From UHGV virus genome UHGV-0203498: a stretch of DNA of 32,670 nucleotides. One strand, written 5' to 3'. Source of the stretch: a virus. Shown in pieces: positions 1-21,488 of the stretch; the first letter of the stretch is position 1, and the number at the start of each line of letters is the position of its first letter. Under the pieces are notes generated by a model that saw nothing but the letters and a program-made list of their open reading frames with translations, did not search any database and was not told the DNA's origin. The position numbers and the translations under genes are program-made.

Positions 1-2064
1 GTTTGGAGGATTCTGCGTATAGTCGTTACCCATTTCATCAACGCTATCCTTAAGCCCGCGGCTGAAGCCATCCCACAACGAAGCGTTTGCACCGGTCTGT
101 GCCTCCTGCACTTCGCGAAGCTTAGACAACGCCCGGTCAATATCGGTATCGTTAGCACCAACACGACGAAGGCGGTCGATTAGCTGTAATTCTTCGCGCA
201 GGTTAGCCGCTTCGCGAGTGGAAAGCGCATACCCAGCGGCGGTGGCTTTTAGCTCGGCGTTCTGGTTCTTAAGGAAGGCATCGATCTGCGCGCTCGCCTT
301 GATCTGCTTCTCTTTCGCGTCCAGCAATTTGGCTTCTTCGACGATCTGCTCGCGTACCGCTTTAACCGACTCGAACTCCGCCATTTGCTGCTTTTCTGCT
401 GCCGTTAGTGCCCTTTCCTTGCTTGCGGCGATTAACTGCTCATTATCTGCAATCAGCTTGTTAAGGGCCGCCTGCGCGCGCTGTGTGCGGGTCTGCGAAG
501 TAGCGTTAGCCTCGATCTGCTTGCCCGATTCACGAAGTTGCGCCAGTTCGCTCCGTGCGGCCTCCAGCATTTTAACACCAGCATCCACGCGAACAGCCGC
601 GGCCTTCTTCGGTGCCGGGTCTTTGTAGCGCTCGTTGACCTGCTTCACCGCCTCAGCCAGTTCTTTCTCGCTAATCACTCCACGCTTATTCAGCAAATTG
701 AGGCGGGCGATCTCATCGGCGCGCTTCTTAGCGTTGGTGGCGAACTCCTTCTCAAACGCGGCGCGGTCCCGGGCTGTGCGGTTGGCCTCCTCATTCGCTT
801 TCGCTGCCTGGTCCGCAGCGCTGGCGTTGTCCCGCTCCGCACGGTTACGCAGGGTGAGAGTCGCTACTACTTTCTCCTGGGCGACCATTTCGCTATAAAG
901 CATGTTAATACGTGCTTTCTGCGCCTCGGTCATTACCCCACCGGCAGCGTTGACCGCTTTCATCTCGGCATAGTAAGCCGTTGTCATGCGCTGCAAGGAC
1001 TCACGCGCTTTCATCTCGGACTCATTCGAGGACTGCGCGCGGCCCACATCCAGGATGGCATCCCACATAGATTTCGCTGCCGATGTGACGACGTTCATCG
1101 ACCGCTCAAGCGTACCCATGTTGGCCTTAATATCGTTGGTCATAGTGGTGAACGACGCAGCCGCTGTTTTGTTAGCCAACGCAACTGCGTCAGTCTCGCG
1201 GCCCATATCCACAAGTGACTGCACCTGCTGGATCTGCGCCTCGGTAACGACATGGTACTTGTCCGCCAGTGCGCGCAAGCCACCAACCGGGTCATTGGAC
1301 AACTTCGCCACCGCAGCGACCACATCGTCAATCGGCTGGCTGGACGCCTTCGCGAAGTCATTAACGGTCTTAGCCAGTGCGCCGAAGTCAGCACCCGCCT
1401 TAACGCCCGCCGCCGCCAGTGCCTGAATTGTGTCTCGCGTCTTGCGGAATGACCCGCCCATGCGCTCGGCGTTCTCCGATAACACCAGGATTTGGTTAGC
1501 GGTGAGGCCGGAGATGTTACCGGACAGCGCCAGCGTCTTGTTTAGCGCTGCGACCTGGTTTTCTGCACGGGTAGTAACTGCCACGCCGACGCCTAACGTT
1601 GCCGTTAATGCCGCTAGGCCGATCCCGACCGGACCGAGAACGCCCGCAACATAACGCAGCGTGCTACCCAGGCCACCAAACGCCCCTGTTAGCTGAGGTA
1701 ACTGCTGAAGCATAACGCGGTGCACCGGCATACCCATCTCAAGCGTGACCGCAATATCCTGTAACTGGAATGCGGCGTTACGAGAGGCAAAGCCCAGGTT
1801 TTTGGTCGACATGCCTAACCTGTTGGCTAGTCGCTCCTGTTTCGTCATGCCATCGGCGGCGCGCTGCGATTCATTCGCCAGCTTTTCCATTCCGCCCGCG
1901 GCGTCACTCGTCACCTTTTTGGATTTGCCGAGTGTGTCGTTTAATTTCTTAACCTTGTTTTCTGTGTTCTCGGATTTCTGTGCGAAGGAGTCCAGCACAG
2001 TATTCGCCGTTCTGATTTGTGCAACATCCGCCTTTAGCGTGATGCCTGCTGCTTGATCTGCCAT
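1..2064 (-). CDS. Tail tape measure protein, N-terminal ~688 aa; C-terminus lies beyond the window start
   Basis: Minus-strand ATG at 2064..2062 opens a frame that stays open to position 1. Translation (MADQAAGITLKADVAQIRTANTV...) is long, alpha-helical and A/Q/K/E-rich, typical of tape measure proteins. It sits downstream of the tail chaperone genes. The ORF track omits it because it has no stop inside the window. Confidence 0.75.
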   Translation of the reverse strand, partial: MADQAAGITLKADVAQIRTANTVLDSFAQKSENTENKVKKLNDTLGKSKKVTSDAAGGMEKLANESQRAADGMTKQERLANRLGMSTKNLGFASRNAAFQLQDIAVTLEMGMPVHRVMLQQLPQLTGAFGGLGSTLRYVAGVLGPVGIGLAALTATLGVGVAVTTRAENQVAALNKTLALSGNISGLTANQILVLSENAERMGGSFRKTRDTIQALAAAGVKAGADFGALAKTVNDFAKASSQPIDDVVAAVAKLSNDPVGGLRALADKYHVVTEAQIQQVQSLVDMGRETDAVALANKTAAASFTTMTNDIKANMGTLERSMNVVTSAAKSMWDAILDVGRAQSSNESEMKARESLQRMTTAYYAEMKAVNAAGGVMTEAQKARINMLYSEMVAQEKVVATLTLRNRAERDNASAADQAAKANEEANRTARDRAAFEKEFATNAKKRADEIARLNLLNKRGVISEKELAEAVKQVNERYKDPAPKKAAAVRVDAGVKMLEAARSELAQLRESGKQIEANATSQTRTQRAQAALNKLIADNEQLIAASKERALTAAEKQQMAEFESVKAVREQIVEEAKLLDAKEKQIKASAQIDAFLKNQNAELKATAAGYALSTREAANLREELQLIDRLRRVGANDTDIDRALSKLREVQEAQTGANASLWDGFSRGLKDSVDEMGNDYTQNPPN

Positions 2065-2126
2065 TATGCAGTCCCCTTTTTTATGCAGTTGCCGATTGAC
2101 ATTGTATCAGCGAATTTAAAACAATC

Positions 2127-2289
2127 CTTATGCAGTCTCAGACGAGGGGGGTGCCAGACCCCCCGTCTAGTCTGAAAGACTGGGGTGCTGTCCCGCTGTC
2201 CCGATCGGCTGAAACCCGCGGCAGCACTGCGGGGGACGGGGTGCTGTCCCGCTTTGTCCCGCCCCTGGTCTGTCCCGCTTTTTGTCCCG
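2127..2289. repeat. Copy A of a ~163-bp structured repeat element (imperfect long palindrome followed by a GTCCCGC heptamer array)
   Basis: 2128-2203 is identical to 18923-18999 and 2233-2289 is identical to 19027-19083; a ~29-nt variable segment separates the two identical arms. Contains the near-palindrome CAGTCTCAGACGAGGGGGGTGCCAGACCCCCCGTCTAGTCTGAAAGACTG. Confidence 0.85.
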
Positions 2290-2447
2290 TTTGTTTTATG
2301 TAGTAAAACTGAATAGGTATGCACTTTTTCAGGGGGTGCCGTAGCGGGACGTCCCGCTTGTCCCGCTTTTAGTTTATGCAATAAAAGTAAATAGGTATGC
2401 AGTTTTCGAGGGGCGGGACAAAACGGGACGTCCCGCTTGTCCCGCTT
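2290..2447. repeat. Two tandem ~79-bp units (TTTATGCAATAAAA...AGGGGG...GGGACGTCCCGCTTGTCCCGC)
   Basis: Units begin at 2295 and 2374 with TTTATG(C/T)A(A/G)TAAAA and end with GGGACGTCCCGCTTGTCCCGC. Perfect 10-bp palindromes GGGACGTCCC lie at 2346-2355 and 2425-2434. Confidence 0.8.
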
Positions 2448-2450
2448 TAT

Positions 2451-3126
2451 TATGCGGGGTTTTGCTGCGCCATTTCATCGAGCGCGATTCGCTCCATTAG
2501 CTTGATATCTTTAAACGCACGTTGCTCGTTTTCGATGCCGTGCATCTTAAATAGCCATTCCAGTACGCCGTAGTCGATGCCGTATGCGCCACCGAATCCG
2601 GTGCGCCATTGCGTGGCGCAATCCGTGAATACGGCGACTATCTTCGCGTTGTCGGGCCATAGCGCAACAGGCGGACAAACATCTTCGGGGGCCGCGCCCC
2701 ATAAACTCGCGGCTAAATCCTCGGAGGGTGGCGGCGGGCCATAATAGCGTCGCGCCGCCTCAATTAGTTTTTTTCACGCAATCCCATCAGTTCGAGATAG
2801 TACGAGGTATGGAACACGCCGAACGCGCGCGGATAGTTGACTACCAGGCGGCGGACGTTCTCCGCATTAAATTCGTCCGGCAGATTCCAGCCTTCGGCGA
2901 CGTGCATGATGGCCTCGACCATAACGTTAAAGCCATCAGGGTCGTTGTCGTCATATTCCGATAGCTTGCGTTCCGTTTCCTGCATGGTCTGCGAAAACTC
3001 GTCAATCGGGCGGTGCCGGACGGTAAACGTCATCTTGCCTGGTTCGTTCTCGCCAGGGCGCGGGATCTCAATCGGCAGCTTAAAGGTTGGCTTAGGGTCG
3101 AGTGTGAAGAGTGGGGCTTTAGCCAT
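2451..3126 (-). CDS. Tail assembly chaperone frameshift fusion (gpGT-like), made by a programmed -1 shift at A AAA AAC (2767-2773)
   Basis: The -1 frame downstream of the heptamer is open for ~104 codons (KKLIEAARRYYGPPPPSEDLAASLWGAAPEDVCPP...MAQQNPA, stop at 2453..2451) and has no start codon of its own. This is the conserved G/GT arrangement upstream of tape measure genes. Confidence 0.55.
2764..3126 (-). CDS. Tail assembly chaperone (lambda gpG-like), 0-frame product
   Basis: ATG at 3126 is preceded by GGAG. Position is between the major tail gene and tape measure gene. The ORF ends in the slippery run GAA AAA AAC TAA. Confidence 0.6.
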   Translation of the reverse strand: MAKAPLFTLDPKPTFKLPIEIPRPGENEPGKMTFTVRHRPIDEFSQTMQETERKLSEYDDNDPDGFNVMVEAIMHVAEGWNLPDEFNAENVRRLVVNYPRAFGVFHTSYYLELMGLREKN

Positions 3127-3141
3127 TGTAATATTCTCCAA

Positions 3142-3166
3142 TAAAAAAGGGGCCGTGCTGGCCCCA
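3142..3166 (-). terminator. Rho-independent terminator after the major tail gene
   Basis: Minus strand reads GGGGCC-agcac-GGCCCC followed by TTTTTTATT (plus-strand stem 3149-3154 / 3160-3165, A-run 3143-3148). Confidence 0.6.
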
Positions 3167-3195: not shown

Positions 3196-3921
3196 TCAGG
3201 CGAGTGCCTCAACCAGGTCTTTACGGTAAATAACCATATCTGACTGCATGGTCAGGGTGGCTTGTACCGTCTCCACGTTGTTTACTTCAGCGGACGGAAT
3301 CTTCTGGAAAGATACCTTCGCCGGGTAAATACGAATTTCACCTTTGCCGCTTGCTGCCGCTGGGTTAGTGAACTGGATCACAGTGGTTTTCTGTGTATCG
3401 TCCAGGTCTTCCAGGATTGGGCGGATCGGGTCTTCTTCGTCGTGGGTGAAGGTGTAAGTCTGGACCAACGGGTTTTTCGTGGTGTTAAGACTGATTGCGG
3501 TGTTCACCTGCAACGGCTGGAAGGTAGTCGTCTGCTGGTCGCCACCCGACACGGCAACGTTAGTGATAAACGGGAAGTCGATAAAGCTCGACACCTTCAC
3601 CACTTCGCCCGGTGTGCCAGAGCTAAAAGCGCCGGTAGGGTATTTGGTCACGTCCGAGGAGTCGAAGCGCGCCAGCGTCACGTCGTTCTCGGATACTTTA
3701 CCCACGATGAATGCGCGGTTAAGCGCTCGGACCCACGGGGTCTTAGTGAACATAACAACGTCGCCAACAACCAGGCCATGCGAAGCCGCACAGGTAATTA
3801 CGCAACCTTGCGTAAGGTCGGAGATCGACGCGGCGGCGTTGGTGGCTGCCGTAACAGCGATACCATTGCCTAATACGGATCCAATCTGGACGCTGGATCC
3901 ATTGGGAAGTTGGTAGCCCAA
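3196..3921 (-). CDS. Major tail protein (putative)
   Basis: 241-aa ORF directly upstream of the chaperone and tape measure genes. TTG start at 3921 is preceded by AGGAGG at 6-nt spacing. Followed by an intrinsic terminator, as expected for an abundantly expressed structural gene. Confidence 0.55.
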   Translation of the reverse strand: MGYQLPNGSSVQIGSVLGNGIAVTAATNAAASISDLTQGCVITCAASHGLVVGDVVMFTKTPWVRALNRAFIVGKVSENDVTLARFDSSDVTKYPTGAFSSGTPGEVVKVSSFIDFPFITNVAVSGGDQQTTTFQPLQVNTAISLNTTKNPLVQTYTFTHDEEDPIRPILEDLDDTQKTTVIQFTNPAAASGKGEIRIYPAKVSFQKIPSAEVNNVETVQATLTMQSDMVIYRKDLVEALA

Positions 3922-18776: not shown

Positions 18777-18921
18777 AATCACGCGCATGAAAAAGTTGAT
18801 CGCTATCTGCTGAAACTGCAAACTGCATTTTTCACTCTCCATTCTGCAACTCGCATTGGTTGCCGAGTTCATCGACGACCGCAATTTGCATCATGTTGCC
18901 GTGCGTTATGCAATCCCGGAT

Positions 18922-19083
18922 TTTATGCAGTCTCAGACGAGGGGGGTGCCAGACCCCCCGTCTAGTCTGAAAGACTGGGGTGCTGTCCCGCTGTCCCGCT
19001 CCTCTGGAAGCCGCGTCATCCGTGGGCGGGACGGGGTGCTGTCCCGCTTTGTCCCGCCCCTGGTCTGTCCCGCTTTTTGTCCC
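18922..19083. repeat. Copy B of the ~163-bp structured repeat element
   Basis: 18923-18999 is identical to 2128-2203 and 19027-19083 is identical to 2233-2289, in the same orientation, 16.8 kb from copy A. Confidence 0.85.
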
Positions 19084-19132
19084 GCTTACTTTATGCAATA
19101 AAAATGCATAATTATTCACTATATTCACACTA

Positions 19133-19223: not shown

Positions 19224-21488
19224 TTAATCTTTCAAGTCATCGTCTGTCGCCGAAAGCGTGATTGGGATATCCGATTTGATAACCAAATTAGACGACCCAT
19301 ATATGGCCCCGGTGTGTGGATCTGTGTAAAAACCGAGCACGCCGCGCTCGACCATATCGTCAATTGCCTTCGTCGATGTGCCACCTTTCGCGAGTCCCGC
19401 CTGGCGGACAATTGCCGATTTACTGAATCCAGTATGATCCGGGTTATCTTCCATCAGTTTTTCCAGTGCCGCATAAAGCACTTTTTCTTTTTCTGTGCGC
19501 GGTCCGGCGGTGTTCTCTTCCTTAACTGCGGCTTTGCCCGCGGCCTTCGCCTGTTCGATAGCGAACGGTGCCAGGGCAACCGGTACGAGGTAGAGAGTCT
19601 CGTCGCGTGGCGTGGAGGCGATAGGCTTGACGTCCCAACCGGCAACCACATCGCCGAAGTCAGGCCCAGCGCTGGTGGACTGGTGGGCTTCGAACGCCTC
19701 GGACTTGCGGAGATCCACCTTCACCTTGCACTTGAGCAGGACGAAGCCGCGCGGCGCTTGCTTGATGCCGTTACGAGACTTCTCGTGGTACAGGTTGAGT
19801 TGGCCTGGCTGGTTGTCGTCTGGCTGTTCCAGGAAGAACGCAGAATCGACAGCACCATGAAGCGCGCCGGATCCGCGTGGCGTTCTGCTGCCGTTTGCAC
19901 CTTTAGCCGGGTGGTGGATGACGCCCGCGCTGCCGCCTGTATTTTCCGCAATGGCCTTCAGCGCCTTGACTACCTCGCCCATATCGCTGGCGTTGTTCTC
20001 GTCGAATGGCTTGGCATCGGCGGACCGCAGCGCGACAGTCTGGTTGAGTGAGTCGAATGCCACCAGGCCAACCGGTTCGCCATTCGCGGTGCGATTGATA
20101 AAGCTGATAACTTCGCGCAGGCCAGACTTGCTGGTGATATCCCAGCCGCGTGACTGCAGGTCTATAATGTGCAACTTGTCCAGGTCGTGCTCGTATTTGA
20201 TCTGCAATGCTTCCTTACGCTGGCTGGAGGCTTCGCCGCCTTCCGCATCGAAATAGAAGCAATGGGACTGGACGACCTTCGCACCGCCAAACGGGATACC
20301 AGCGGCAACCGCGCCCATCTGACCCAGCACGTAGAACGACTTACCGATGTTCGACTCACCGGCGAGATACCAGGTCGATTTGAAGTTAACCAGGCCTTCG
20401 ATGATCGGGTCGTGTTTACTGAACAGGGCGACCGGCTCGTTGTCCAGGTCTGCATCTGTGCATTCGCCGAACTCGTCGCCGTCACCGACCGCGTCCACGA
20501 TATGCTCGTAGCATGATTCCACTTCCTCGTCGTCCAGCCCCGGAAGGATGGCGGCGATCTGCTTACGTGACATGTTGTGCGGTTCGACGTTCAGGTGGTC
20601 CGGGATACCGATCAGACGCAGCGCCAGGTGCTGGTGTTTATTCAGTTCTGAGCAACACTCGTTACCGGTGTGCATACACTTGAAACGGATCTCGCCATCC
20701 TTAACCAGGATTGCCGTTGACCCTTCGCCACTGTGCAGGTGTTCGTTAGGACACGGCACTTCATAGCCGCGACCGGATGACAGGGGTTCAAAGCCCGCCT
20801 GGAAGCACCAGTCCAGGATGCCGTCTGCCACACCGCCGTCGCCCTGGGTCAGTTCGTGGCGTACTTCCTCTTTCTCAACTCCCAGCTTGTCAGCCAGGCG
20901 GAGCAGACGACGGACGCGGGCACGCTTGCCGTAGTGGCACTTAACGACAGCCTGCTGGTGCGGCAGGTACATAAGGCGGTTTGTGTCTTTCGTGCAATCG
21001 TCGAAAGCCACATCAGACAGGCCCAGTTGGTCTAACAACGCATACTGGACGCGGCCCAGGTCTTCCGCCGGTACAGGCTTGTCAGTGAGCACCAGGAAAC
21101 GAGCGCAACGCGTGCCACCTTTCAGCGGGTGTCGGTCGCCGGTAGTGGTGTGGAAGACGTGCTCCAGTCCCGCGTCGATGAACGCCTTACGGCAGCGGCG
21201 TAAGGTGCTGGTGTCGGTGCGGTCAATATCGAAGAACAGGATCGAGCGGTCCACCGCACTGGTCTTACGACGCAATCCGTCACGGGTATACGCCACTATG
21301 CCATCAGCCTTACGCTTGCGGCGCGCATACTCGGCTTTATCTTCCGTCTTGTTGATATGCACCGACGATATTTCTTTCGCATCTTTGATAAATTCGAAAA
21401 ATTCATCAGTGGTCATCTGGAAGTTTTCCGCCCTGGCTTTTTCGCCTTTTTTAGCGGGTTTTGTTACAGCGAATTTAATTAAGCTCAT
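19224..21488 (-). CDS. DNA primase / helicase (primase-polymerase-like N-terminal domain, zinc-binding middle region, P-loop ATPase C-terminal domain)
   Basis: N-terminal ILFFDIDRTD (hhhhDhD primase-polymerase-like motif); Cys/His cluster CPNEHLH...CMHTGNECC; Walker A AGESNIGKS and Walker B-like GLVAFDSLN. Confidence 0.8.
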   Translation of the reverse strand: MSLIKFAVTKPAKKGEKARAENFQMTTDEFFEFIKDAKEISSVHINKTEDKAEYARRKRKADGIVAYTRDGLRRKTSAVDRSILFFDIDRTDTSTLRRCRKAFIDAGLEHVFHTTTGDRHPLKGGTRCARFLVLTDKPVPAEDLGRVQYALLDQLGLSDVAFDDCTKDTNRLMYLPHQQAVVKCHYGKRARVRRLLRLADKLGVEKEEVRHELTQGDGGVADGILDWCFQAGFEPLSSGRGYEVPCPNEHLHSGEGSTAILVKDGEIRFKCMHTGNECCSELNKHQHLALRLIGIPDHLNVEPHNMSRKQIAAILPGLDDEEVESCYEHIVDAVGDGDEFGECTDADLDNEPVALFSKHDPIIEGLVNFKSTWYLAGESNIGKSFYVLGQMGAVAAGIPFGGAKVVQSHCFYFDAEGGEASSQRKEALQIKYEHDLDKLHIIDLQSRGWDITSKSGLREVISFINRTANGEPVGLVAFDSLNQTVALRSADAKPFDENNASDMGEVVKALKAIAENTGGSAGVIHHPAKGANGSRTPRGSGALHGAVDSAFFLEQPDDNQPGQLNLYHEKSRNGIKQAPRGFVLLKCKVKVDLRKSEAFEAHQSTSAGPDFGDVVAGWDVKPIASTPRDETLYLVPVALAPFAIEQAKAAGKAAVKEENTAGPRTEKEKVLYAALEKLMEDNPDHTGFSKSAIVRQAGLAKGGTSTKAIDDMVERGVLGFYTDPHTGAIYGSSNLVIKSDIPITLSATDDDLKD

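What the first reader, a model, noticed from the sequence alone, without database searches (positions are those of the whole stretch)
2451..3126. Programmed -1 frameshift producing a G/GT-type tail chaperone pair
The chaperone ORF ends ...CGT GAA AAA AAC TAA; the heptamer A AAA AAC is a known slippery sequence. The -1 frame is open for ~104 further codons with no start codon of its own, giving a proline-rich extension (GPPPPSEDLAASLW...). This matches the conserved frameshift upstream of tape measure genes and supports the tail-gene assignments.
Basis: partly seen in the sequence, partly recalled or inferred. Interest (0 to 1): 0.5.

Follow-up and report, generated by a model that had tools for sequence, protein, structure and literature searches.

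The report
Tail chaperone G/GT frameshift site
This is the ordinary programmed -1 ribosomal frameshift that lets a long-tailed phage (here an E. coli Dhillonvirus) make a short and a long tail-assembly chaperone from one gene pair; it is real and strongly conserved, but it is a well-known kind of feature that happens to be unannotated in this phage genus.

Summary
Confirmed. All features are on the minus strand. A 120-codon ORF (3126..2764, Pfam Phage_TAC_4, E 9e-24) ends CGT GAA AAA AAC TAA. The -1 frame opens at a TGA directly 5' of the heptamer A AAA AAC (2773..2767). It runs 105 sense codons to TAA TAA (2452..2447), and its first possible start is codon 75. That extension is a full-length Pfam DUF1799 domain (E 7e-21) and folds confidently (pLDDT 94). 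Its best structural matches are annotated "tape measure chaperone" proteins, including annotated frameshift fusions. The pair lies between the major tail gene and the tape measure gene.

In 20 distinct Dhillonvirus sequences, substitutions in the extension fall mainly on third codon positions of the -1 frame (23/11/68). A AAA AAC followed directly by a stop occurs in 92 of 103 distinct contexts, including a clade only about 40-45% identical in protein. More distant family members have G GGA AAC plus stop, which argues for ribosomal rather than transcriptional slippage.

One addition: a GC hairpin 7 nt downstream lies in the most nucleotide-invariant stretch of the locus and may stimulate the shift.

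None of the 51 annotated Dhillonvirus records among 60 sampled names this region as a chaperone product. It is a new member of a known kind, of low interest.

The parts
3196..3921 (-). Major tail (tube) protein gene, directly upstream of the chaperone pair
   Evidence: 241 aa. Pfam Phage_tail_3 PF08813, E 1.4e-32; phrog_584 'major tail protein', E 1e-73. Annotated as major tail protein in relatives.
3141..3165 (-). Terminator-like hairpin (GGGGCCAGCACGGCCCC followed by TTTTTT) between the major tail gene and G
   Evidence: Consensus scan. Invariant in the three-phage alignment. Scapp carries an annotated terminator at the equivalent place. That it lowers chaperone expression relative to tube protein is inference.
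2764..3126 (-). G: the short tail assembly chaperone ORF, 120 aa, ending ...REKN then TAA
   Evidence: Translation. Pfam Phage_TAC_4 PF08748, E 8.7e-24, profile positions 1-124 of 124. Variable columns by codon position 10/6/79 across 20 Dhillonvirus sequences.
2767..2773 (-). Slippery heptamer A AAA AAC (X XXY YYZ in the G frame). The G stop codon TAA follows directly at 2766..2764, and a -1-frame TGA lies directly 5' at 2776..2774
   Evidence: Invariant in all 20 Dhillonvirus sequences. AAAAAAC plus stop in 92 of 103 distinct homologous contexts. The only AAAAAAC in the window.
2453..2767 (-). T: the -1 frame extension, 105 codons (LIEAARRYYGPPPP...QQNPA), which joined to G gives a 225-aa GT protein. 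Double stop TAA TAA at 2452..2447
   Evidence: Pfam DUF1799 PF08809, E 6.8e-21. No start codon before codon 75. Variable columns by T-frame codon position 23/11/68. AlphaFold2 mean pLDDT 94.3. BFVD matches to tape measure chaperone products.
2730..2759 (-). Candidate stimulatory hairpin: arms GGCGGCG (2759..2753) and CGCCGCC (2736..2730) with a 16-nt loop, starting 7 nt 3' of the heptamer
   Evidence: MFE -17.0 kcal/mol against -11.8 +/- 2.6 for shuffles, z -2.0. Both arms are invariant in 20 sequences and variation is confined to the loop. The 17-codon window over slip site and hairpin has 2 variable codons, against at least 8 in every non-overlapping window; permutation gave 0 of 20,000. No covariation is available, so function is inferred.
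1..2064 (-). Tape measure protein gene. ATG at 2064..2062; the gene runs off the left edge of the window
   Evidence: Pfam TMP_2 PF06791, E 6e-43; phrog_24, E 9e-137. Aligned with the annotated tape measure start in Haito_Bas83 and Pandora71.

Best explanation
Most ribosomes translating the chaperone mRNA read G to Asn120 and terminate at TAA, giving the 120-aa chaperone G. A minority slip back one nucleotide while tRNA-Lys (AAA) and tRNA-Asn (AAC) occupy A AAA AAC. They re-pair on AAA AAA, continue with CTA ATT GAG..., and make a 225-aa GT protein whose C-terminal 105 residues are a DUF1799 domain.

By analogy with lambda gpG/gpGT, the G part of both proteins coats the tape measure protein and the rarer T part recruits the major tail protein. 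The fixed G:GT ratio then sets up correct tail polymerisation, and neither protein ends up in the virion.

A AAA AAC is a weak shift site in E. coli, which fits a low GT fraction. The stop codon directly 3' of the heptamer and a GC hairpin 7 nt downstream may raise or tune the efficiency.

Shown here: the sequence anatomy, the homology, the selection on the -1 frame and the conservation of the site. Inferred: the slip itself, its efficiency, the roles of the hairpin and the stop codon, and the protein functions.
For: - Anatomy: the heptamer is in register, the -1 frame opens exactly at it, and no start codon occurs for 74 codons.
- Both parts are full-length members of phage families: PF08748 at E 9e-24 and PF08809 at E 7e-21. 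They sit between PF08813 (major tail) and PF06791 (tape measure).
- phrog_17368 covers both halves in one profile.
- Purifying selection acts in the T frame: variable columns 23/11/68 by codon position.
- A AAA AAC plus stop occurs in 92 of 103 distinct contexts, including relatives about 40-45% identical in protein.
- T1-like Drexlerviridae have GTA AAA AAC TAA, with only six A's. Ralstonia, Pseudomonas, Xanthomonas and Acidovorax phages have G GGA AAC followed by a stop. What is conserved is therefore the X XXA AAC heptamer logic, not a homopolymer run.
- Every G homologue examined except Scapp's (REKY), 16 of 17 recovered, ends in ...(K/G)N.
- The Scapp homologue is deposited as a joined frameshift CDS.
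- The T model has pLDDT 94.3, and its best BFVD matches are tape measure chaperone fusion products of 210-277 aa.
- DUF1799 homologues among 1.84 billion cluster representatives: 1050 at E <= 0.001. The best 150 are 38-150 aa with ragged N-termini and none is fused in frame to a G domain, as expected for a start-less extension ORF.
- Literature: lambda G:GT is 30:1 and the frameshift is widely conserved. A_AAA_AAC is much less shift-prone than A_AAA_AAG in E. coli, and it is used for g-t in the haloarchaeal virus HCTV-2 (PMC5009743).
Against: - There is no direct evidence that GT is made: no proteomics and no reporter assay.
- A AAA AAC is a poor shifter in E. coli, so efficiency may be very low unless it is stimulated.
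- The hairpin has only conservation in its favour, not covariation, and an 87-nt downstream fold is no more stable than shuffles (z 0.04).
- The more distant clades show no common downstream structure.
- The seven-A run in Dhillonviruses leaves room for some contribution from RNA polymerase slippage.
Confidence: 0.9

Rival explanations
1. The shift is transcriptional. RNA polymerase stutters on the run of seven A's (template T's) and inserts one extra A in a fraction of mRNAs, and standard translation of those transcripts then gives GT.
For: The window and all Dhillonviruses have G AAAAAAA C, a seven-A run. A one-base insertion would give the same protein frame. Bacterial RNA polymerase slippage is established for homopolymer runs (PMC5009743).
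Against: The review reports efficient slippage in vivo for runs of 9 A or T; here the run is 7. Relatives in the same protein family keep the architecture with 6 A's (GTA AAA AAC; L037 and L092, T1-like phages). Others have no run at all (G GGA AAC), where only the ribosomal heptamer rule applies. The final C, which fixes the AAC codon, is conserved, and a polymerase-slippage site would not need it.
Confidence: 0.05
2. T is made as a separate protein by independent or coupled (termination-reinitiation) initiation at a non-canonical codon near the G stop, for example the ATT at 2764..2762 that shares one base with the TAA stop codon. No fusion protein would exist.
For: ATT shares one base with the TAA stop, which resembles stop-start coupling. 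Gene callers in databases do call stand-alone DUF1799 ORFs of 38-150 aa.
Against: No ATG/GTG/TTG occurs before codon 75, which is after most of the domain. There is no Shine-Dalgarno-like sequence upstream of ATT. The codon at that position is not conserved (ATT, ATA, ACA, AAA, ACC, ATC) while the heptamer is. The called stand-alone ORFs have ragged, non-homologous N-termini, and in Dhillonviruses they are only a 38-aa fragment. phrog_17368 and the BFVD fusion entries treat G and T as one chain.
Confidence: 0.03
3. The -1 ORF is a non-functional remnant, or an open frame that arises by chance from base composition.
For: Long open -1 stretches after stop codons are common in this window: 18 of 103 ORFs.
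Against: Full-length Pfam match at E 7e-21. Third-position bias 23/11/68. The frame is open in all relatives examined, down to about 30-40% identity across more than 1100 phage records. Confident fold prediction.
Confidence: 0.01

Closest known systems
Bacteriophage lambda gpG/gpGT tail assembly chaperones (Levin, Hendrix & Casjens 1993; Xu, Hendrix & Duda 2004, 2013, 2014, as cited in PMC5009743)
   Same: Two overlapping ORFs lie between the major tail gene and the tape measure gene. A -1 shift on an X XXY YYZ heptamer near the 3' end of G gives a C-terminally extended GT, and the second ORF has no start of its own.
   Different: There is no detectable sequence homology to the lambda G or T families; the families here are PF08748 and PF08809. 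The heptamer is A AAA AAC rather than G GGA AAG. In the window the zero-frame stop abuts the heptamer. A candidate downstream hairpin is present. The tape measure gene is 385 nt away rather than adjacent.
Serratia phage Scapp tape measure chaperone pair CPT_Scapp_029/030 (MH553517.1), deposited with a joined frameshift CDS
   Same: Same protein family (T part 39% identical). Same gene order, a terminator before the pair, and a -1 frame that opens at a TGA directly 5' of the AAA codon. It is the best structural match of the T model.
   Different: The Scapp site is GAA AAG TAT TAA, an A AAG-type site with one further codon before the stop. This differs from A AAA AAC followed directly by the stop.
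T1-like Drexlerviridae chaperone pairs (TfmA/TfmS of the Tlsvirus FSL SP-126; 'tape measure chaperone' of IsaakIselin)
   Same: DUF1799 extension, the same heptamer A AAA AAC followed directly by TAA, and the same gene order.
   Different: About 37-40% identity in T. The preceding base is T (GTA AAA AAC), so the run is six A's. The tape measure gene follows within about 25-45 nt. The downstream sequence differs and lacks the Dhillonvirus hairpin.
E. coli dnaX gamma/tau -1 frameshift (A AAA AAG with an upstream Shine-Dalgarno-like sequence and a downstream stem-loop)
   Same: An A-rich lysine heptamer and a GC stem-loop a few nucleotides downstream.
   Different: dnaX uses AAG in the A site, which is far more shift-prone in E. 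coli, and about half of ribosomes shift. No conserved Shine-Dalgarno-like element lies upstream here: the GGN codon about 9 nt upstream varies freely at its third base.

Membership tests
G/GT-type phage tail assembly chaperone pair with programmed -1 frameshift (Xu et al. 2004) | Two overlapping ORFs located between the major tail protein gene and the tape measure gene, on the same strand | tested here: met
   Order on the minus strand: PF08813 (3921..3196), G (3126..2764), T (2767..2453), PF06791 (from 2064). The 385-nt gap before the tape measure gene is atypical.
G/GT-type phage tail assembly chaperone pair with programmed -1 frameshift (Xu et al. 2004) | A slippery sequence, in register, inside the overlap of the two frames, allowing a -1 shift | tested here: met
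   A AAA AAC at 2773..2767. The overlap window is exactly 7 nt, bounded by the -1-frame TGA and the zero-frame TAA.
G/GT-type phage tail assembly chaperone pair with programmed -1 frameshift (Xu et al. 2004) | The downstream ORF lacks its own translation start and ribosome-binding site | tested here: met
   The first ATG/GTG/TTG is codon 75 of 105. The ORF listing finds no T-frame ORF of at least 40 aa.
G/GT-type phage tail assembly chaperone pair with programmed -1 frameshift (Xu et al. 2004) | The arrangement (both frames and the slip site) is conserved in relatives despite sequence divergence | tested here: met
   92 of 103 distinct contexts have AAAAAAC plus stop, and others have GGGAAAC plus stop. 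Codon-position bias in both frames.
G/GT-type phage tail assembly chaperone pair with programmed -1 frameshift (Xu et al. 2004) | Both G and GT proteins are produced at a fixed low GT:G ratio, are required for tail assembly, and are absent from virions | not testable with these tools
   This needs proteomics, reporter assays or genetics.
Pfam Phage_TAC_4 (PF08748) | Score above the Pfam gathering threshold over the whole domain | tested here: met
   84.5 bits against a cut-off of 21.1; residues 1-120 match profile positions 1-124 of 124.
Pfam DUF1799 (PF08809) | Score above the Pfam gathering threshold over the whole domain | tested here: met
   74.7 bits against a cut-off of 26; residues 23-99 of the extension match profile positions 1-80 of 80.
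-1 PRF with a 3' stimulatory RNA structure (dnaX or IS911 type) | A stable stem-loop or pseudoknot 5-9 nt downstream of the heptamer, supported by covariation or mutagenesis | tested here: inconclusive
   A hairpin with a 7-nt spacer is present: -17 kcal/mol, z -2.0. It lies in the most invariant stretch of the locus. The sequences offer no compensatory changes, and distant clades show no shared structure.
Transcriptional slippage recoding site | A homopolymer run long enough for RNA polymerase realignment (efficient at about 9 A or T) that is conserved as a run | tested here: not met
   The run is 7 here, 6 in T1-like and some other relatives, and absent in the GGGAAAC relatives. The length threshold is from PMC5009743.

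The most novel reading that the evidence does not exclude
In the Phage_TAC_4/DUF1799 chaperone clade, the frameshift cassette may be more than a bare heptamer. The zero-frame stop codon abutting X XXA AAC is nearly universal in the family. In Dhillonviruses, the GC hairpin 7 nt downstream sits in a 17-codon window with almost no synonymous variation. Both could be genuine efficiency-setting elements that compensate for the weak A AAA AAC site in E. coli. That would make this a stimulated G/GT frameshift, which is not the usual picture of G/GT sites.
Probability: 0.3. Interest if true: 0.3.

Novelty: new member of a known kind. Interest (0 to 1): 0.2.

Why it matters
The practical value is for annotation. 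In the 51 annotated records among the 60 Dhillonvirus records sampled, the T region is labelled 'hypothetical protein', 'DUF1799 domain-containing protein', 'gp16' or nothing. Spurious small ORFs are called across it, and no sampled record names it as a chaperone frameshift product. Recognising the G/GT pair fixes the tail module annotation of a common group of E. coli phages used in phage collections and therapy screens. It also links Pfam DUF1799 to a function, the T domain of tail assembly chaperones. Biologically it adds no new principle. It does offer a convenient E. coli system for asking how a weak heptamer (A AAA AAC) is tuned by an abutting stop codon and a downstream hairpin.

Tried and rejected
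- The search for homologous proteins with the GT fusion gave only two G-only hits. It was uninformative because of the word-index limit.
- The search for related loci with the 50-sequence T alignment failed in both collections, and with the 12-sequence alignment it failed on genome contigs, because no stretch was conserved enough. The viral-contig scan with the 12-sequence alignment worked.
- An 87-nt downstream fold showed no excess stability (z 0.04). Only the local 41-nt hairpin stands out.
- I looked for an upstream Shine-Dalgarno-like stimulator as in dnaX. Only ATGGGA about 9 nt upstream resembles one, and its third G-codon base varies freely (GGA, GGG, GGC) among close relatives, so I rejected it.
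- I looked for a shared downstream structure across the distant clades and found none.
- Sequence search of the PDB and Foldseek against the PDB found no solved relative of G or T. NCBIfam has no model for either.
- Rfam at gathering thresholds found nothing in the window.
- Phage Zar3M seemed to carry A AAA AAT, but its record is full of N's in this stretch and I did not use it.
- Literature searches for Dhillonvirus or HK578 together with frameshift or chaperone terms, and for DUF1799, found no description of this site.

Full report
**What the window is.** The window is about 90% identical in DNA to some 159 phage records, nearly all E. coli or Shigella phages of the genus Dhillonvirus (HK578-like siphoviruses). 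The structural genes in the left part of the window are on the minus strand.

**Observation.** All coordinates below are read on the minus strand.
- An ORF runs from ATG 3126 to TAA 2766..2764. It encodes 120 aa and ends ...CTG ATG GGA TTG CGT GAA AAA AAC TAA.
- The heptamer A AAA AAC (2773..2767) is in the X XXY YYZ register of that ORF.
- The -1 frame has a TGA at 2776..2774, so it opens exactly at the heptamer. After a slip the next codon is CTA (2767..2765).
- The frame then stays open for 105 sense codons (LIEAARRYYGPPPPSEDLAASLW...MAQQNPA) up to TAA TAA at 2452..2447.
- The first ATG, GTG or TTG in that frame is codon 75 of the 105.
- AAAAAAC occurs nowhere else in the window.

The only corrections concern strand, 105 rather than about 104 codons, and the "proline-rich" label, since there is just one PPPP run.

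**Is it more than chance?** An open -1 frame alone is not. 18 of 103 long ORFs in this gene-dense window have at least 100 open codons in the -1 frame after their stop, and 6 of 103 have an in-frame X XXY YYZ heptamer in their last ten codons. Content and conservation decide the matter.
- The 120-aa product is a full-length Pfam Phage_TAC_4 domain (PF08748, E 8.7e-24).
- The start-less extension is a full-length Pfam DUF1799 domain (PF08809, E 6.8e-21, profile positions 1-80 of 80).
- One PHROG profile, phrog_17368, matches G at profile positions 1-107 and the extension at 150-212.
- The flanking genes are the major tail protein (3921..3196, PF08813) and the tape measure protein (ATG 2064, running off the window edge, PF06791).

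**Selection.** I compared 20 distinct Dhillonvirus sequences of the G-T region: the window, 5 GenBank records (L001, L002, L023, L024, L106) and 14 IMG/VR contigs.
- Variable alignment columns fall 10/6/79 on codon positions 1/2/3 of G.
- They fall 23/11/68 on codon positions 1/2/3 of the -1 frame in the extension.

The extension is therefore a protein-coding sequence under purifying selection in exactly the frame that has no start.

**Conservation of the site.**
- Loci recovered from IMG/VR with the G protein and with a T alignment include a large clade only about 40-45% identical in protein.
- Over all fetched loci, 92 of 103 distinct sequence contexts have AAAAAAC followed immediately by TGA or TAA. 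The extension behind them is 100-106 codons.
- A tblastn search with T finds 1154 phage records.
- Samples from the outer reaches of that set show GTA AAA AAC TAA in T1-like Drexlerviridae. They show G GGA AAC TGA/TAA in Ralstonia, Pseudomonas, Xanthomonas and Acidovorax phages, and GAA AAG TAT TAA in Serratia phage Scapp.
- All but one of the G homologues examined (16 of 17; Scapp's ends REKY) end in ...(K/G)N.
- Scapp is deposited with a joined CDS noted as "Tape Measure Chaperone Frameshift Product".

**The T domain as a protein.**
- A search of 1.84 billion cluster representatives found 1050 DUF1799 relatives at E <= 0.001.
- The best 150 are 38-150 aa with ragged N-termini and none is fused in frame to a G domain. 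This is what a start-less extension ORF looks like to gene callers.
- AlphaFold2 on a 50-sequence alignment gives mean pLDDT 94.3 and pTM 0.80, a mainly helical domain with a small hairpin.
- Foldseek finds no solved structure (best E 2.2).
- In BFVD the top matches are "Tape measure chaperone" entries, including fusion products: Scapp 236 aa (E 1e-5, TM 0.77), Klebsiella phage Solomon 210 aa, and further chaperones from Caulobacter, Salmonella and Acinetobacter phages.

**Mechanism.** The best-supported mechanism is tandem -1 ribosomal slippage of tRNA-Lys and tRNA-Asn on A AAA AAC. This gives mostly G and a small share of a 225-aa GT.
- According to the review PMC5009743, A_AAA_AAC is much less shift-prone in E. 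coli than A_AAA_AAG. The same review gives a G:GT ratio of about 30:1 for lambda. A weak site is therefore what this system would need.
- The same heptamer is reported for g-t in the haloarchaeal virus HCTV-2.
- Transcriptional slippage on the seven-A run is the main rival. The review reports efficient RNA polymerase slippage for runs of nine. The run here is seven, six in T1-like and some other relatives, and replaced by GGGAAAC in others. What is conserved is the heptamer rule and the AAC codon, not a homopolymer.
- Independent initiation of T is unlikely. There is no start codon for 74 codons, no ribosome-binding site, and the ATT that overlaps the stop is not conserved.

**Possible stimulators.**
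- A hairpin lies seven nucleotides after the heptamer: GGCGGCG, a 16-nt loop, then CGCCGCC (2759..2730). Its energy is -17.0 kcal/mol against -11.8 +/- 2.6 for shuffles (z -2.0).
- Among the 20 Dhillonvirus sequences, the longest invariant nucleotide run of the whole 677-nt region is 26 nt, from 5 nt before the heptamer through the 5' arm. The joint second longest, 15 nt, covers the 3' arm. Variation falls in the loop.
- The 17-codon window over slip site and hairpin has 2 variable codons. Every non-overlapping window has at least 8, and 0 of 20,000 permutations reach 2.
- G ends at the heptamer, so the downstream stretch is single-coding. This synonymous constraint therefore points to an RNA-level function.
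- The evidence is still only conservation. No compensatory changes exist in the data, a longer fold is unremarkable (z 0.04), and distant clades share no structure.
- The near-universal zero-frame stop directly after the heptamer could act as a "shifty stop". That is inference.
- No conserved upstream Shine-Dalgarno-like element exists.

**Comparison with what is known.**
- This works like lambda gpG/gpGT and meets every computationally testable criterion of the conserved tail-chaperone frameshift of Xu et al. 2004.
- The protein families differ from lambda's, and so does the heptamer (G GGA AAG in lambda).
- Within the same Pfam families, the frameshift is already annotated in at least one phage, Scapp.
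- Within Dhillonvirus I found no record that annotates it. In the 51 annotated records among 60 sampled, the T region carries "hypothetical protein", "DUF1799 domain-containing protein", "gp16" or nothing. The six Dhillonvirus records inspected in detail call either a 38-aa C-terminal fragment or spurious out-of-frame ORFs.
- Literature searches found no description of the site.

**Verdict.** It is a new, unannotated member of a thoroughly known kind. Interest is low (0.2). The only mildly novel angle is the candidate hairpin and the abutting stop as efficiency-setting elements.

Noticed in passing
window 2065..2449 (minus strand), between the T stop and the tape measure ATG: The chaperone pair and the tape measure gene are separated by a 385-nt non-coding gap. 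In the related phages inspected (Scapp, IsaakIselin, FSL SP-126, Medea1) the tape measure gene follows within about 10-95 nt, though OP1 and Aval also have larger gaps. The gap is packed with GCGGGAC(A/G) octamers (10 copies here; 22 in the window against 3.6 +/- 2.1 expected). It also holds two units of about 78 nt containing the palindrome GGGACGTCCC, and ACTGCATA motifs (7 in the window against 0.6 expected). It is conserved in Haito_Bas83 and Pandora71. Other records annotate 'terminator (x3/x4)' or 'repeat_region' here. It may be a terminator, promoter or regulator-binding array that uncouples tape measure expression from G/GT.
   Followed up: partly
window 2120..2305 and 18920..19105 (both minus strand): A non-coding element of about 185 nt is duplicated almost exactly in two intergenic regions. 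It consists of four or more GCGGGACA repeats followed by a long imperfect hairpin, CAGTCTTTCAGACTAGACGGGGGGTCTGGCACCCCCCTCGTCTGAGACTG, and then ACTGCATAA. One copy precedes the tape measure gene. The other follows the 754-aa ORF (21488..19224) and precedes a run of small minus-strand ORFs. No Rfam family matches. Its function is unknown; it could be a shared promoter or operator cassette, or a structured RNA.
   Followed up: partly
window 3141..3165 (minus strand): A terminator-like hairpin, GGGGCCAGCACGGCCCC followed by TTTTTT, lies between the major tail gene and the chaperone gene. It is invariant in three phages. It may attenuate transcription so that the chaperones are made in lower amounts than tube protein.
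   Followed up: no
window 2547..2702 (minus strand) and the equivalent stretches in relatives (L001 4558..4713 and others): A 51-codon arginine-rich ORF in the third frame inside the T region is called as a 'hypothetical protein' in some deposited genomes (Haito_Bas83). Other records call only a 38-aa C-terminal piece of T from a GTG that is GTA in this window. These are likely annotation artefacts caused by the missing frameshift call.
   Followed up: partly
L105 (Escherichia phage vB_EcoS_Zar3M, NC_073065.1) 1150..1300: This RefSeq record has many N's scattered through the G-T region and shows GAAAAAAATTAA (AAT instead of AAC) at the slip site. The sequence looks low quality, so the variant heptamer should not be trusted.
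   Followed up: no
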